A DNA stretch of 64,000 nt, taken from Anaerolineae bacterium (GTDB lineage: Bacteria > Chloroflexota > Anaerolineae > Epilineales > Epilineaceae). The translations under genes were made by a program, and so were the position numbers. The DNA lies in contig JBGAUA010000001.1 in NCBI GenBank assembly GCA_044228875.1, forward strand, positions 14,713 through 78,712, given 5' to 3'. How positions within the stretch are numbered: the first letter of the stretch is position 1; the number at the start of each line of letters is the position of its first letter. Shown in pieces: positions 18,414-24,001 of this stretch. The notes below the pieces were generated by a model that saw only the letters and a list, made by a program, of their open reading frames with translations, did not search any database and had not been told where the DNA came from.

Positions 18414-19148
18414 TCAGTCGTCGTCGAACACCGGCACGGCGGACGACAGCTGCACCCGGTTGTTGCCGTTGCGCTCTCGCACCGCCTGCACGATATCGCG
18501 CGGCGTGGCGTCCTTGCGCAGACGCACCGCGTAATGCAGTTCGGTCATCAGGCCCGCCTGCACCGTCTGGATGGACTGCAGGCTGGCGCTGTCCACGTAG
18601 CGGGCGAAGGGCTCCGCCAGTACCTGCTCGAAGTCGATGTCCGGCGTCACGCGGATGATCAGGCTGTGGCTGGGTCGGTCCGGGGCGAACAGGTTCAAGC
18701 GCGAGACCATCCAGACGAGCAGCGACACCAACGCCGTGGTGAACACTGCGATACCGTATTCCTGCGCGCCGATGGACAGTCCGATGGCCATGGCCAGGAA
18801 GATGAAGCCCACATCGATGGATTGGCTGACATTGCGTCGGAAGCGGATGATGGAGAAAGCCGCGAACACCGCCAGAGCCGTGTGCACGCGCGTGGAGACC
18901 ACCATGATCACCACCGTGACCACCATGCCCAGCATGATCAAGGTCTGCACGTAGTCCTGCTGGTAGCCTGGGCCCGGATGGACCCTCTGGTACACCCAGC
19001 CGATGATGACCAGAAGGGCGAAGGCCAGAGCCAGGGCCCCCAAAACCTCCAAGGGCCCGACCGGCACTGCCACCGCATCGGCCGCGGCCGGCGCCGCGCC
19101 GGTGCCGAAGAGCAGGTTCATTGCGTCGGTCGCGCTATCCATGCCCAA
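18414..19148 (-). CDS. DUF4956 domain membrane protein
   Basis: 4 TM helices in the N-terminal half and a soluble C-terminal domain; the 240-aa architecture matches DUF4956. Start overlaps the end of the upstream VTC gene by ~30 nt. Confidence 0.6.
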   Translation of the reverse strand: MGMDSATDAMNLLFGTGAAPAAADAVAVPVGPLEVLGALALAFALLVIIGWVYQRVHPGPGYQQDYVQTLIMLGMVVTVVIMVVSTRVHTALAVFAAFSIIRFRRNVSQSIDVGFIFLAMAIGLSIGAQEYGIAVFTTALVSLLVWMVSRLNLFAPDRPSHSLIIRVTPDIDFEQVLAEPFARYVDSASLQSIQTVQAGLMTELHYAVRLRKDATPRDIVQAVRERNGNNRVQLSSAVPVFDDD

Positions 19149-19981
19149 GCCTTTCCGGCGGCGCCACCCGGCCCCGCCCGTCGATCCCCGCCGGCGAACC
19201 CGGCCAGGCCAATCGTCCAGTCCTGCGGCAGATCGATGCTCAATCCATGGGGCTGGATGGCCAGCGCCTCAACCGCCGTCTGATACTTGCTGAAGGAGCG
19301 GGGCTGGCAGCCCAGGCCGCCGAGCAGCCGCGCCAGCCAGTAGGGCACCGCGTGGTCCACCTTCACCTCCAGCACGCGCTGGTCGGGCGACACCAGGTCG
19401 ACATCGAAGTCATGGTCGTCCGGGACCACCTGGTGGAAGGCCCGGGCCCGGGCCTTCAGCCCGGCATCGAAGGTCAGCCGAAGATCCGCCTCGGCGCCCT
19501 GGCCCATCCAGGCCTCGCGATCGTAACGCATGACACAGACCGGCCGCAGATCCTTGTCGATGATCAGCCGCTGTACCTCTTCCAGGACAATGGCGTCCAT
19601 GCCGGCCAGACGCCGGGCCAAGGGGCGACCGCGCGTGAGATCGAGGGCTTCCTCGATGGTCAGGGCGATGCGCCGCTTGCTGGTCCGGCCGGTGTACTTG
19701 TGCTTGATCTCCACAAAGGTGATGCCTTCGGGATGGTCACCGGCCTGGCCGTAGATGCGGATGCGCAGCTTGCGCCGCGAGGGCCGTCCCAGCAGGTTGT
19801 TGACGTAGATCGCTCGCTCGGCGTTGTCCAGGTAGAGGCTGATGATGGGGTAGCGACCATCCGGACCGGCATGCGGATCGGGCGCCATGCGCGCCGCGAC
19901 AGCCGCGCGGATGGCGACGGCCTGCTCAGCACGGACAACAAACTTGAGTTCGCGACGGTCGAAGCGGGTGATGGTGTCCAT
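19118..19981 (-). CDS. VTC-domain (polyphosphate-polymerase-like / CYTH triphosphate-tunnel) protein
   Basis: 'TRFDRRELKFVV' N-terminal beta-strand and 'FVEIKHKYTGRTSKRRI' (tunnel Lys/Arg ladder), as in VTC4 catalytic-domain homologues. Start assumed at internal 'MDTITRF' (ATG 19981) preceded by 'agga'. Confidence 0.6.
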   Translation of the reverse strand: MDTITRFDRRELKFVVRAEQAVAIRAAVAARMAPDPHAGPDGRYPIISLYLDNAERAIYVNNLLGRPSRRKLRIRIYGQAGDHPEGITFVEIKHKYTGRTSKRRIALTIEEALDLTRGRPLARRLAGMDAIVLEEVQRLIIDKDLRPVCVMRYDREAWMGQGAEADLRLTFDAGLKARARAFHQVVPDDHDFDVDLVSPDQRVLEVKVDHAVPYWLARLLGGLGCQPRSFSKYQTAVEALAIQPHGLSIDLPQDWTIGLAGFAGGDRRAGPGGAAGKAWAWIARPTQ

Positions 19982-23100: not shown

Positions 23101-24001
23101 CGATCTGGCCCGATTCACGGTGCCACGGGGAAGCGTCATCGCCCCCGGGGGCTTCCTGGTGTTCTACGAGGAGCAGTTGCGGCAGGGCGGCGCCGGCGGC
23201 GCCGGATTTGCCCTGTCCTCACGTGGCGAAGGCCTGTACCTGGCCGCGGCCGACGAAAGCGGTCAGTTGACGGGCTACGCCTCCGGCGCCCGCTTCGGTC
23301 CGGCAGAGGAGAACATCGCCCTAGGTCGCGTCCAGACCCGCGCCGGCGCCCTGGAATGGGCTCGCCTGAGCGCACCCAGCTTCGGCGTCGACCAGCCTGC
23401 CGACCCGGCGGATTTCCGCCGTGGCACGGGTGGCCCCAACGCGATCCCCTTGGTGGGGCCAGTGTACATCGCGGAGCTTCACCTTTTGCCGGTCAAGGAC
23501 GGGCCGGTCTCCTTCGTGGAACTGGCCAACATGGGTCATTCGGCGCAAGCGCTGTCCGAGGAGGACGGCCGGTCCTGGGAGTTGACCGGGCGCCTTCCCT
23601 TCCGCTTCCCGCCCGGTGCCGCCGTACCGGCCAGCGGCCGCGCCTTGGTGGTCGCCGAGGAGCCGGACAGCTTCCGCACGCGCCACGGGGTGCCGGACGA
23701 GGTCCCGATCTACGGCCCGGCCACGATGGCGCCGCCGGACGAAGGCCCGACCGAAGCCCTCTTGCGGCCCTTTCCGGACGACATCGTCCAGACGCCTCCG
23801 CTCTTCATCAGCTTGGAGCACCTGCTTGTCTTCCCCGGACCGCCTTGGCCGACCTTGCCGCCCGGCACCAGTTTGGAGCGCCTCGAGCCGCCACGCTATG
23901 CCGGTGAGCCCGATGCATGGTCGGCGCTCCGGCCGGGCGGAACGCCGGGCCGGTCGAACACGACGCCGCGGCGCCTGTGGCTGCCCTGGCTAGGGAGCTG
24001 A
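20177..24001 (+). CDS. Large secreted CotH-kinase-family protein with N-terminal chitobiase/hexosaminidase-C-like domain and C-terminal lamin-tail (LTD) repeats
   Basis: Signal peptide 'ALAAVLLGLGGALLPGS' (the true start may be the ATG at 20215). 'ASIRYTLDGSPP' (CHB_HEX_C-like). CotH hallmark 'YVHLYLNGLYWGLYNLTEE'. Three LTD-like units, each with 'ELxN..... vDLSG' (e.g. 'ITELMYNPEPGEAEFLELRNTEAVPVDLSGARF', 'LSELLPASSAPYEDAVELYNPNLGPVDVGGWLLSD'). Confidence 0.65.
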   Translation: MHSPSRFTENRDPMGRSRRKPVWPARQTALAAVLLGLGGALLPGSFHRGWAEAAGAPRHIVYLPLLSPPIGVVDAPRLNRPPGLQEAPFALALTSHTTGASIRYTLDGSPPGPEHGERYLTPIPIEGTQILRAVAYKTGMQSSPVVTASFLFLDQVLRQSAMQDPGRFPDAWGRYPEGKREGLPVPVDYGMDPKVVDDPSTAGRILSDLRSLPSISLVCDPVDLWGSPGLFGDREGIYANPVAEGREWERPVSMEWIDAKGRQSLQIDAGLRIAGQWSRKPDSTPKHGFSLRFRKDYGADRLDFPVFPDSPVQRFETLRLRGGQADAFTYFPLKALYAHDQVGRDLQLDLGQPAARGRYVHLYLNGLYWGLYNLTEEPTARFAADHLGGGEDDYDVVKGLEVHSLVHGKPVVVNSFEMEDGNDAAFRALLALRDGPPPDEPGRLAEAEALLDLDAFAAYHILEIYAANDDWLGKNWRALRRRVEPGSEAARQPGGRWSFLVWDIERGAFLRLADPLCGSAAHHCGDPRRPDAADIAATAGVMDLHGWLKGNVDYRLRFADQARRLLMADGPLTPAAVAARYKRRLDEIDGPIVAESARWGDVYPRYAYERTFLENALWWLSFWQPYRQPELQAVQRRDPEWLTERDRLLEQAIPPRTAIVIEQLCRQQLLSPVPGLAMNTEAPGTTGGNTRITITPLPEGCPERLAGGDIFYTLGGEDPRQPGSGRPGSWWTGLPATGAQRYTHALRLSGYQRLRARMAVITEGGLLWGPLSELVVGLPRVEITELMYNPEPGEAEFLELRNTEAVPVDLSGARFQGIDLTLPPGAVLAPGSYALVTNSPGDLAERYGADLPVIGEYSGGLSGDGERIRLLDAADRPLADARYDDGDFWPLAPDGHGFSLVPEAREGAAEPERWRASSLPGGSPGQADPPPRTPRILLSELLPASSAPYEDAVELYNPNLGPVDVGGWLLSDSRVDLARFTVPRGSVIAPGGFLVFYEEQLRQGGAGGAGFALSSRGEGLYLAAADESGQLTGYASGARFGPAEENIALGRVQTRAGALEWARLSAPSFGVDQPADPADFRRGTGGPNAIPLVGPVYIAELHLLPVKDGPVSFVELANMGHSAQALSEEDGRSWELTGRLPFRFPPGAAVPASGRALVVAEEPDSFRTRHGVPDEVPIYGPATMAPPDEGPTEALLRPFPDDIVQTPPLFISLEHLLVFPGPPWPTLPPGTSLERLEPPRYAGEPDAWSALRPGGTPGRSNTTPRRLWLPWLGS

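What the first reader, a model, noticed from the sequence alone, without database searches (positions are those of the whole stretch)
18414..24001. CotH-kinase giant protein divergent from a VTC (polyphosphate-polymerase-like) + DUF4956 membrane-protein pair
The three genes sit around one 195-bp divergent promoter region. On the minus strand, a VTC-domain (triphosphate-tunnel, yeast Vtc4-catalytic-like) gene overlaps the start of a DUF4956 4-TM protein, so the two are translationally coupled. On the plus strand is a 1274-aa secreted CotH-family atypical kinase with chitobiase-C-like and lamin-tail domains. In yeast, the VTC catalytic tunnel makes polyP and feeds it through a membrane channel formed by partner TM subunits. 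A bacterial soluble VTC plus a dedicated membrane protein could be an analogous split system. CotH kinases phosphorylate extracytoplasmic proteins. Co-localisation suggests a polyP- or nucleotide-linked extracytoplasmic phosphorylation or export module that has not been characterised biochemically.
Basis: partly seen in the sequence, partly recalled or inferred. Interest (0 to 1): 0.7.

Follow-up and report, generated by a model that had tools for sequence, protein, structure and literature searches.

The report
Bacterial VTC polyphosphate enzyme, membrane partner, CotH
A Chloroflexota genome carries a yeast-type polyphosphate-polymerase-like enzyme welded to a small membrane protein, back to back with a giant secreted CotH kinase; this gene trio is already noted in the literature, recurs across phyla, and has never been studied biochemically.

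Summary
All three genes and their domains are there, at the stated coordinates, and the VTC gene overlaps the DUF4956 start.

- **VTC protein.** It keeps every residue that binds triphosphate and Mn in yeast Vtc4, including the lysine found only in the active subunit. Its model matches Vtc4 best.
- **DUF4956.** It is a five-helix membrane protein with a cytoplasmic ACT-like domain. It is a remote relative of MgtC and is not related to the yeast VTC channel.
- **Linkage.** VTC is followed by DUF4956 in 85 of 88 loci. A CotH gene lies within 3 kb of the pair in 29 of 86 non-redundant loci, in different orientations. The reverse is weak: only 3 of 80 loci with this type of giant CotH carry the pair.
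- **Export context.** In five loci from outer-membrane bacteria the pair shares an operon with a HlyD-type adaptor, and in three also an outer-membrane factor.

Most likely reading (inferred): polyphosphate is made at the membrane, passed outward, and used with the secreted CotH.

The trio was already described beside Gram-positive pel operons, so this is a new stand-alone variant, not a new kind.

The parts
18414..19142 (-). DUF4956 gene (242 aa). Five predicted membrane helices (aa 30-149) followed by a cytoplasmic ACT-like domain (aa 159-234). Invariant R100-F101-R102 and D110 sit on the loop between helices 3 and 4, which I infer to face the cytoplasm.
19118..19981 (-). VTC-domain gene (287 aa): a cytoplasmic triphosphate-tunnel enzyme of the Vtc4 type. 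Residues K13, R73, R75, K93, Y153, R155, E205, S231 and K232 correspond to Vtc4 K200, R264, R266, K281, Y359, R361, E426, S457 and K458. The tail (aa 248-287) is predicted to be disordered.
   Evidence: Pfam PF09359 E 5e-42. Profile against PDB: Vtc4 3g3q E 2e-21, with these residues aligned. The columns are invariant in 25 homologues. Model pLDDT 81; best Foldseek hits are Vtc4, E 3e-14, TM 0.62. The Vtc4 residue list comes from bioRxiv 10.1101/2023.01.27.525886.
19118..19142 (-). 25-nt overlap between the VTC 3' end and the DUF4956 start. It is compatible with translational coupling.
   Evidence: Sequence read directly. Overlapping or abutting VTC-DUF4956 genes are seen in most loci.
19982..20176 (.). 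195-bp divergent intergenic region between VTC and CotH.
   Evidence: No sigma-70-type consensus promoter or intrinsic terminator was found.
20085..20146 (-). Non-coding block that is nearly invariant in the window, L005 and L001. It contains a GTCC..GGAC inverted repeat, a GAAGGA Shine-Dalgarno-like motif and an ATG at 20113. It is a candidate operator or upstream ORF; its function is unknown.
   Evidence: Alignment A6. Found only in close relatives. No Rfam match. Folding z-score -0.07 and no usable covariation.
20177..24001 (+). Gene for a giant multidomain CotH-family protein (1274 aa).
   Evidence: Full-length relatives at 29-80% identity occur in Chloroflexota loci and in 80 metagenome loci.
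20177..20335 (+). Signal-peptide-like N-terminus (aa 1-53: RSRRK, hydrophobic stretch TALAAVLLGLGGALLPG, then AEA|A).
   Evidence: Read from the translation. The same type of N-terminus occurs in the orthologues. No signal-peptide predictor was available.
20444..20626 (+). Ig-like module of the chitobiase C-terminal / Fn3-associated type (aa 90-150).
   Evidence: Pfam PF13290 E 5e-15 and PF13287 E 3e-16.
20765..21979 (+). CotH kinase core (about aa 197-601). D470 and N475 lie in 'ANDDWLGKNW'; D503 and E505 lie in 'VWDIE'. D470 corresponds to B. subtilis CotH D228 and D503 to D251.
   Evidence: Pfam PF08757. Profile A5 against B. cereus CotH 5jd9, E 8e-32. Columns are invariant in A5 and A9. 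D228Q and D251A are catalytically inactive (PMC7821199).
22514..23296 (+). Two lamin-tail domains (aa 780-876 and about 935-1040). A third, degenerate LTD-like stretch may follow at about aa 1096-1200.
   Evidence: Pfam PF00932 E 5e-27 with two matched stretches. The bounds of the second and third repeats are my reading of the recurring motif.

Best explanation
The core is a two-gene unit. A cytoplasmic Vtc4-type triphosphate-tunnel enzyme most likely polymerises phosphate from ATP into polyphosphate. Its obligate partner, DUF4956, is an MgtC-like five-helix membrane protein with a cytoplasmic ACT-like domain. It holds the enzyme at the membrane and passes the growing chain, or its product, to the outer face. 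This would be a split bacterial analogue of the yeast VTC synthase-translocase, built with an unrelated membrane part.

In this monoderm Chloroflexota genome the unit shares a divergent control region with a giant secreted CotH-type kinase carrying Ig-like and lamin-tail modules. That kinase would act on the same extracytoplasmic target, probably using or attaching the exported polyphosphate.

Shown: domain identities, conserved catalytic residues, gene coupling, cross-phylum linkage, and export-type operon partners in diderm relatives.

Inferred: polyphosphate synthesis, translocation through or alongside DUF4956, and any use of polyphosphate by CotH.
For: 1. VTC identity.
- Pfam E 5e-42; profile hit to Vtc4, E 2e-21.
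- The AlphaFold2 model matches Vtc4 structures best (E 3e-14), well ahead of CYTH hydrolases (1e-7).
- All Vtc4 triphosphate and Mn ligands are invariant in bacterial homologues. This includes the K458 equivalent, which is Ile or Leu in the inactive Vtc2 and Vtc3 subunits.

2. VTC is followed by DUF4956 on the same strand in 85 of 88 loci. In the window the two genes overlap by 25 nt.

3. A CotH gene lies within 3 kb of the pair in 29 of 86 non-redundant loci, about 14 times the density at 3-10 kb. The linkage survives changes in gene order:
- divergent in Chloroflexota;
- CotH(-CotH)-VTC-DUF4956 in Opitutae;
- VTC-DUF4956-CotH in L086.

4. In five loci from diderm bacteria, VTC and DUF4956 sit in tight operons with a HlyD-family adaptor (L085, L087, L088, L123, L132). 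Three also have an OEP/TolC-like protein (L087, L123, L132). No ABC, RND or MFS pump gene is present. This leaves DUF4956 as the candidate inner-membrane export component.

5. The CotH core keeps the catalytic Asp and metal-binding residues. All orthologues have signal-peptide-like N-termini.

6. The trio is also reported next to Gram-positive pel operons and in C. perfringens NELoc-2. Deleting the DUF4956 or CotH homologue in S. intermedius changes Pel levels and halves aggregation.
Against: - No bacterial VTC-domain protein has been assayed in any paper I could find.
- DUF4956 is not related to the yeast channel subunits. Its closest relative, MgtC, is regarded as a regulator rather than a transporter.
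- Its invariant basic residues lie on cytoplasmic loops and the ACT-like domain; none is mid-helix in the model.
- Bacterial VTC proteins carry a near-invariant extra Glu (E11, in R-x-E-x-K) that recalls the ExExK motif of CYTH hydrolases, where Vtc4 has Thr.
- Only 3 of 80 giant CotH genes of this architecture have the pair within 10 kb, so this CotH type usually works without an adjacent pair.
- The relative L001/L002 keeps CotH and VTC but has no DUF4956 within 10 kb.
- In S. intermedius the VTC deletion had no reported aggregation or Pel defect, unlike its two neighbours.
- The single DUF4956-VTC fusion (P0177) comes from one low-coverage contig and may be an assembly artefact.
- The 88 loci are dominated by Verrucomicrobiota metagenome-assembled genomes and are not independent samples.
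Confidence: 0.4

Rival explanations
1. An intracellular phosphate or polyphosphate homeostasis device with no export. The VTC enzyme makes or turns over polyphosphate in the cytoplasm. The MgtC-like DUF4956 only anchors or regulates it, for example by sensing a metabolite through its ACT-like domain. CotH is a frequent neighbour because the genes are co-regulated (for instance by phosphate supply), not because they share a substrate.
For: - DUF4956 has MgtC-like architecture with sub-threshold MgtC matches.
- MgtC acts on the ATP synthase and PhoR rather than transporting anything (as cited in PMC12345266).
- About two thirds of the pairs have no CotH nearby.
- 77 of 80 giant CotH genes have no pair nearby.
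Against: - It does not explain the tight operons that combine the pair with a HlyD adaptor and an outer-membrane factor but no other pump.
- It does not explain why the recurrent neighbour is always a secreted enzyme.
- The linkage persists across changes in gene order in several phyla.
Confidence: 0.25
2. The VTC-domain protein is not a polymerase. It is a tunnel-fold hydrolase or signalling enzyme (a tri- or polyphosphatase, or an NTP-processing enzyme). Its product or substrate controls the DUF4956 membrane protein.
For: - The triphosphate-tunnel fold supports many chemistries, and CYTH hydrolases are the next-best structural matches.
- Bacterial VTC proteins have a near-invariant Glu at the second position of an ExExK-like motif, which Vtc4 lacks.
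- No biochemistry exists for the bacterial branch.
Against: - Sequence and fold are much closer to Vtc4 than to any hydrolase (E 3e-14 against 1e-7).
- The complete Vtc4 catalytic set is conserved, including K458, which separates active Vtc4 from inactive Vtc2 and Vtc3.
Confidence: 0.15
3. The trio is a module that modifies an exopolysaccharide or other surface polymer, as next to pel operons. CotH phosphorylates a glycan or matrix protein. The VTC pair serves that pathway and has no role of its own.
For: - The trio is contiguous with pelDEADAFG in streptococci, clostridia and bifidobacteria, and sits next to a GT2 synthase in C. perfringens.
- Deletions alter Pel levels.
- The CotH protein carries carbohydrate-module-like Ig domains.
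Against: - No pel or other polysaccharide synthase gene lies within about 13 kb of the trio among the ORFs I scanned in the window. The immediate neighbours are housekeeping genes.
- The same holds for the Chloroflexota and Verrucomicrobiota loci I examined.
- This rival concerns the target. It is compatible with the main explanation rather than opposed to it.
Confidence: 0.12
4. CotH sits next to the pair here only through inherited local synteny, with no functional link.
For: - The window, L005 and L001 share the whole neighbourhood, including unrelated housekeeping genes.
- The GDPD/FG-GAP neighbour proved to be specific to this lineage.
Against: - CotH adjacency recurs in unrelated lineages with different gene orders and different flanking genes.
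- CotH cores are enriched about 14-fold next to the pair.
Confidence: 0.04

Closest known systems
Yeast VTC complex (Vtc4/Vtc3/Vtc1), the eukaryotic polyphosphate synthase-translocase
   Same: - The catalytic tunnel domain has the same fold and the same triphosphate and Mn ligands, including the K458 equivalent.
- The enzyme is tied to a dedicated membrane partner.
- The proposed direction, cytoplasm to exoplasmic side, is topologically the same.
   Different: - There is no SPX sensor domain.
- The catalytic domain is a separate soluble protein.
- The membrane partner is MgtC-like (five helices plus an ACT-like domain) and is not the three-helix VTC membrane domain.
- An extra conserved Glu (E11) is present.
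- Activity is untested.
The cotH / polyphosphate-polymerase / DUF4956 (/DUF4832) accessory genes of Gram-positive pel operons (Whitfield 2020, PMC7112168; S. intermedius SIR_1592-1594, PMC12345266) and C. perfringens NELoc-2 (PMC2879425)
   Same: The same three protein families are adjacent. CotH is predicted to be secreted, and DUF4956 is described there as four membrane helices plus an ACT domain.
   Different: - No pel or other synthase genes, and no DUF4832 hydrolase, lie nearby.
- The arrangement is divergent rather than co-directional.
- CotH is a 1274-aa protein with lamin-tail domains.
- The phylum is Chloroflexota.
- The 2025 paper states that the arrangement was not found outside pel loci; here it stands alone.
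Bacillus CotH spore-coat kinase (PDB 5jd9)
   Same: The kinase core is homologous (profile E 8e-32). Equivalents of the catalytic D228 and of D251 are present.
   Different: - Bacillus CotH is about 360 aa, acts on CotB and CotG during spore-coat assembly, and has no VTC neighbour.
- The window protein is about 3.5 times longer, has a signal-peptide-like N-terminus and extra Ig-like and LTD modules, and has an insertion after the 'WD' motif.
MgtC / YhiD / SapB family membrane proteins
   Different: - The match is below the Pfam threshold (10.9 against 31.4 bits).
- DUF4956 has its own invariant RFR...D motif.
- It is always partnered with a VTC enzyme.
Tripartite envelope-spanning export systems (inner-membrane pump + HlyD-type adaptor + TolC-like outer-membrane factor)
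   Same: In L085, L087, L088, L123 and L132 the pair is operonic with an adaptor. In L087, L123 and L132 there is also an outer-membrane factor.
   Different: - No ABC, RND or MFS pump is present, so DUF4956 would have to play that role.
- These components are absent from the window, whose host phylum is generally regarded as monoderm (my own knowledge).

Membership tests
VTC domain / Vtc4-type polyphosphate polymerase | Match to Pfam PF09359 above the gathering score | tested here: met
   144.5 bits against 23, covering profile positions 2-234 of 235.
VTC domain / Vtc4-type polyphosphate polymerase | Triphosphate-tunnel fold closest to Vtc4 | tested here: met
   AlphaFold2 model pLDDT 81, pTM 0.77. 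The top 13 Foldseek PDB hits are all chains of the yeast VTC complex (Vtc4, Vtc2, Vtc3), led by Vtc4, at E 3e-14 to 8e-12 and TM about 0.6. CYTH hydrolases reach only 1e-7.
VTC domain / Vtc4-type polyphosphate polymerase | Triphosphate and Mn ligands K200, R264, R266, K281, Y359, R361, E426, S457 and K458, the last being specific to the active subunit | tested here: met
   They align with K13, R73, R75, K93, Y153, R155, E205, S231 and K232. All are invariant in 25 homologues except S231, which is conserved in at least 90%.
VTC domain / Vtc4-type polyphosphate polymerase | N-terminal SPX domain and C-terminal VTC membrane domain in the same protein | tested here: not met
   The protein is 287 aa and has only the VTC domain. 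The membrane protein is a separate gene from an unrelated family.
VTC domain / Vtc4-type polyphosphate polymerase | Synthesis of polyphosphate from ATP | not testable with these tools
   This needs an enzyme assay. I found no report for any bacterial member.
DUF4956 (PF16316) | Match above the gathering score, with a membrane part plus a C-terminal domain | tested here: met
   66.1 bits against 30.6. The model shows five helices followed by a beta-alpha-beta-beta-alpha-beta domain.
MgtC family (PF02308) | Match above the gathering score | tested here: not met
   10.9 bits against 31.4 for the window protein. 12 of 34 homologues give sub-threshold matches, the best at E 0.004.
MgtC family (PF02308) | Architecture: five membrane helices plus an ACT-like C-terminal domain | tested here: met
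CotH kinase family (PF08757) | Match above the gathering score and homology to a solved CotH structure | tested here: met
   47 bits against 23.8, with partial coverage. Profile of relatives against 5jd9: E 8e-32.
CotH kinase family (PF08757) | Catalytic Asp (B. subtilis D228) and the second essential Asp (D251) | tested here: met
   D470 and D503 are invariant in orthologues, together with N475. The D251 equivalence relies on counting along the B. cereus alignment.
CotH kinase family (PF08757) | Protein kinase activity with ATP | not testable with these tools
   This needs a kinase assay, ideally comparing ATP and polyphosphate as donors.
pel-associated cotH / polyP-polymerase / DUF4956 accessory gene set | The three genes are adjacent | tested here: met
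pel-associated cotH / polyP-polymerase / DUF4956 accessory gene set | Contiguous with a pelDEADAFG operon, with a DUF4832 hydrolase or a DGC/PDE gene | tested here: not met
   The neighbours are a GDPD/FG-GAP protein, an RF-1-domain protein and housekeeping genes. None of the 33 window ORFs I scanned hits a Pel family.

The most novel reading that the evidence does not exclude
Bacteria possess a VTC-type polyphosphate synthase-exporter. DUF4956 is its membrane conduit, extended by a HlyD adaptor and a TolC-like factor in diderm bacteria. It delivers an energy-rich phosphate polymer to the cell exterior, where ATP is absent. There, secreted CotH kinases use it as phosphoryl donor, or graft it onto surface proteins or glycans. 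This would be a dedicated supply line for extracellular phosphorylation.
Probability: 0.2. Interest if true: 0.85.

Novelty: new variant of a known kind. Interest (0 to 1): 0.55.

Why it matters
- **A second bacterial route to polyphosphate.** Reviews still treat VTC-type polymerases as eukaryotic and PPK as the prokaryotic enzyme (PMC12526157). A working bacterial VTC enzyme would add a second, membrane-coupled route. The lineage here is related to activated-sludge Chloroflexota such as Ca. Epilinea.
- **The phosphoryl donor outside the cell.** Secreted CotH kinases are widespread: 574 relatives of this one were found in a single metagenome scan. What they use as phosphoryl donor outside the cell is an open question. 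The recurrent link to a putative polyphosphate exporter makes that question testable.
- **A place to work on it.** The trio also sits in biofilm (pel) and virulence loci of streptococci and C. perfringens, where genetics is feasible.

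Tried and rejected
- **NCBIfam and PADLOC.** Neither gave a match for any of the three proteins. There is no curated name and no known defence system.
- **Solved relatives of DUF4956.** A PDB sequence search found none. 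The afdb50 fold library was unavailable.
- **Regulatory RNA in the intergenic region.** There was no Rfam hit. Folding was no better than shuffles (z -0.07). Three sequences are too similar for covariation. The RNA structure idea is not supported, and the conserved block stays unexplained.
- **GDPD/FG-GAP protein as a fourth component.** Rejected. It is adjacent only in the closest relatives.
- **The 245-aa gene after DUF4956 in about 29 Verrucomicrobiota loci.** It looks like a PVC-type pseudopilin-like protein, has no Pfam hit, and is absent here. I did not pursue it.
- **Rosetta-stone fusions.** A concatenated VTC+DUF4956 query found one DUF4956-VTC fusion, P0177. It lies on a single contig with about 3x coverage, and the near-identical DUF4956 in P0179 ends in a stop codon. 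I treat it as weak evidence.
- **HlyD adaptor in Opitutae loci.** None is present; the downstream genes are succinate-dehydrogenase-like.
- **Failed scans.** Scans with the broad alignments A1 and A5 failed for lack of a conserved stretch. The narrower alignments A2 and A9 were used instead.
- **Fold prediction of the fusion as a stand-in for a complex.** Not done. The alignment was misregistered, and the tool returns no inter-domain confidence.

Full report
**What is there**

The window is 70% G+C. Its closest genome match is Candidatus Epilinea brevis (Chloroflexota, Ardenticatenia), whose VTC protein is 87% identical.

The three ORFs sit as described. Pfam confirms each of them:
- DUF4956: E 4e-18.
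- VTC: E 5e-42.
- The 1274-aa protein: a CotH core (E 3e-12, a partial match), two lamin-tail domains, and a chitobiase-C/Fn3-associated module.

NCBIfam and PADLOC have nothing for any of them.

Gene starts follow from homologues:
- VTC starts at the ATG at 19981.
- DUF4956 starts at the ATG at 19142. It overlaps the VTC 3' end by 25 nt.

**The VTC protein**

A profile of 25 bacterial homologues hits the yeast Vtc4 catalytic domain at E 2e-21. Its invariant columns are K13, R73, R75, K93, Y153, R155, E205 and K232, with S231 nearly invariant. They align with Vtc4 K200, R264, R266, K281, Y359, R361, E426, K458 and S457. These are exactly the residues shown to coordinate triphosphate and Mn and to be needed for polyphosphate synthesis. 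K458 is the one position that differs in the inactive Vtc2 and Vtc3 subunits (bioRxiv 10.1101/2023.01.27.525886).

The AlphaFold2 model (pLDDT 81) matches Vtc4 structures first, at E 3e-14 and TM about 0.62. CYTH hydrolases follow at 1e-7.

Differences from Vtc4:
- There is no SPX domain and no membrane domain.
- There is a near-invariant Glu (E11) where Vtc4 has Thr. It recalls the ExExK motif of tunnel hydrolases.

**DUF4956**

Twelve of 34 family members give sub-threshold MgtC matches spanning the whole MgtC model. Precomputed annotations in L089 and L090 show the same overlap. DUF4956 is therefore MgtC-like and is not related to the yeast VTC channel.

With the N-terminus outside and the ACT-like domain inside, the invariant R100-F101-R102 and D110 fall on the cytoplasmic loop between helices 3 and 4. 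This topology is my inference.

**CotH**

A profile of relatives hits B. cereus CotH (5jd9) at E 8e-32. D470 and N475 ('ANDDWLGKNW') and D503 and E505 ('VWDIE') are invariant in orthologues. D470 corresponds to B. subtilis D228 and D503 to D251; mutating either inactivates that kinase (PMC7821199).

All Chloroflexota orthologues have a signal-peptide-like N-terminus. No signal-peptide predictor was available, so secretion is inferred.

**Is the neighbourhood conserved?**

I collected 84 loci around VTC homologues from reference genomes and metagenomes, plus further distant ones. I scored them with HMMs that I built iteratively from the window proteins.

- VTC is followed by DUF4956 in 85 of 88 loci. 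The exceptions are L084 and L001/L002.
- L001/L002 is a syntenic relative of the window that keeps CotH and VTC but has no DUF4956 within 10 kb.
- A CotH core (E < 1e-5) lies within 10 kb in 31 of 88 loci. It lies within 3 kb in 29 of 86 non-redundant loci.
- Its density is 8.0 per 100 kb next to the pair and 0.59 per 100 kb at 3-10 kb.

The arrangement differs between lineages:
- divergent giant CotH genes, sometimes two, in Chloroflexota;
- CotH(-CotH)-VTC-DUF4956 in Opitutae;
- VTC-DUF4956-CotH in L086;
- most Chthoniobacter loci have no CotH and carry a PBP1a gene upstream instead.

The reverse test gives a different picture. Of 80 metagenome loci encoding giant CotH proteins of the same architecture (29-44% identity over nearly the full length), only three have the pair within 10 kb. 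Those CotH genes have no other conserved neighbour either. The link is real but asymmetric: the pair tends to sit beside a CotH gene, while this CotH type mostly stands alone.

**Export context**

In L087 the operon reads DUF4956 - HlyD-type adaptor - OEP/TolC-like - VTC - LTD/CotH, with overlapping or abutting start and stop codons. The other cases are:
- L085 and L088: VTC - DUF4956 - HlyD adaptor, preceded in L085 by a 1986-aa cadherin/LTD/CotH protein.
- L123: OEP protein - VTC - DUF4956 - HlyD adaptor, with a CotH gene further on.
- L132: CotH - CotH - VTC - DUF4956 - HlyD adaptor - OEP.

None of these operons contains an ABC, RND or MFS pump. This is the best evidence that the pair moves something across the envelope, with DUF4956 as the inner-membrane part. 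Opitutae loci lack these partners.

**Literature**

- The set cotH + polyphosphate polymerase + DUF4956 (+ DUF4832) was described as accessory genes contiguous with Gram-positive pel operons (PMC7112168).
- C. perfringens NELoc-2 carries VTC, a small membrane protein and CotH next to a GT2 synthase (PMC2879425).
- In S. intermedius, deleting the DUF4956 homologue raised Pel, and deleting CotH altered its level too. Both cut aggregation by more than 50% in sputum medium. The VTC deletion had no reported defect. The authors state that they did not find the trio outside pel loci (PMC12345266).
- I found no biochemical study of a bacterial VTC protein. A 2025 review still treats VTC as the eukaryotic type of polymerase.

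**Interpretation**

The best-supported reading is a split, membrane-coupled polyphosphate synthase (VTC + DUF4956) that hands its product outward, placed beside a secreted CotH enzyme acting in the same compartment.

- Polyphosphate synthesis is a strong inference from the conserved residues.
- Translocation is a moderate inference from operon context and the yeast analogy.
- Use of polyphosphate by CotH is speculative. It is weakened by the 3-of-80 result, by L001, and by the silent VTC deletion in S. intermedius.

The rivals are an intracellular homeostasis device, a tunnel hydrolase or signalling enzyme, a polysaccharide-modification module, and chance synteny. Each is scored separately.

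In this window no pel or other synthase gene lies near the trio. The flanking genes are housekeeping, and the GDPD/FG-GAP neighbour is specific to this lineage.

**Verdict**

This is a stand-alone Chloroflexota variant of a gene set already noted in the literature. It is worth a biochemical test, but it is not a new kind of system on present evidence.

Noticed in passing
window 20085-20146 (minus strand), within the VTC/CotH spacer; L005 about 9835-9900; L001 about 9835-9900: A block of about 60 nt is nearly invariant across relatives whose VTC proteins are only 62% identical. It holds a GTCC..GGAC inverted repeat, a GAAGGA motif and an ATG 11 nt downstream of that motif (a possible upstream ORF starting 'MPNCDAGLQ'). 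It has no Rfam match and no folding signal. It may be an operator or a leader peptide.
   Followed up: partly
L001 10001-10825 and L002 2701-3525: A syntenic relative of the window keeps the giant CotH and the VTC gene, but the DUF4956 gene is missing. The GDPD/FG-GAP gene abuts the end of VTC instead.
   Followed up: partly
L087 4057-12526; L132 about 5860-18623; L123 881-13375; L085 and L088 8001-10660: In other lineages VTC and DUF4956 share operons with a HlyD-family adaptor and, in three of the five, an OEP/TolC-like outer-membrane protein. No conventional pump gene is present.
   Followed up: yes
window 15688-18339 (+): An 883-aa protein with a signal-like N-terminus, a glycerophosphodiester phosphodiesterase domain and seven FG-GAP repeats lies convergent with DUF4956. 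It is adjacent to the trio only in the closest relatives (window, L005, L001/L002).
   Followed up: yes
window 56138-59101 (+): A second large protein (987 aa) appears to be secreted. It consists of four lamin-tail domains and has no recognisable catalytic domain.
   Followed up: no
P0177 / L091 1305-2681: A single 458-aa protein fuses DUF4956 (N-terminal) to VTC (C-terminal) in a gut metagenome contig with about 3x coverage. The near-identical DUF4956 in P0179 ends in a stop codon, so the fusion may be an assembly error.
   Followed up: partly
L004 11580-12317 and about 29 other Verrucomicrobiota loci: A conserved 245-aa gene follows DUF4956. It has an N-terminal membrane helix and a C-terminal 'DGH' motif, and looks like a PVC-type pseudopilin-like protein. 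It has no Pfam match.
   Followed up: partly
window 24504-26587 (-): A cassette of a PI3/PI4-kinase-like protein and a histidine phosphatase (with DUF3090 between them in L001) lies next to an RF-1-domain gene. It is conserved in L001 and appears unrelated to the trio.
   Followed up: no
window 27706-31662 (+): The topoisomerase I ORF reads as 1318 aa, with the Toprim domain starting only at aa 452, and it overlaps the end of the sigma-70 gene. The true start is probably further downstream.
   Followed up: no
L084 8828-10792: This VTC homologue has no DUF4956 within 10 kb and lies in an unusually long open frame (655 codons from stop to stop). I did not examine it.
   Followed up: no
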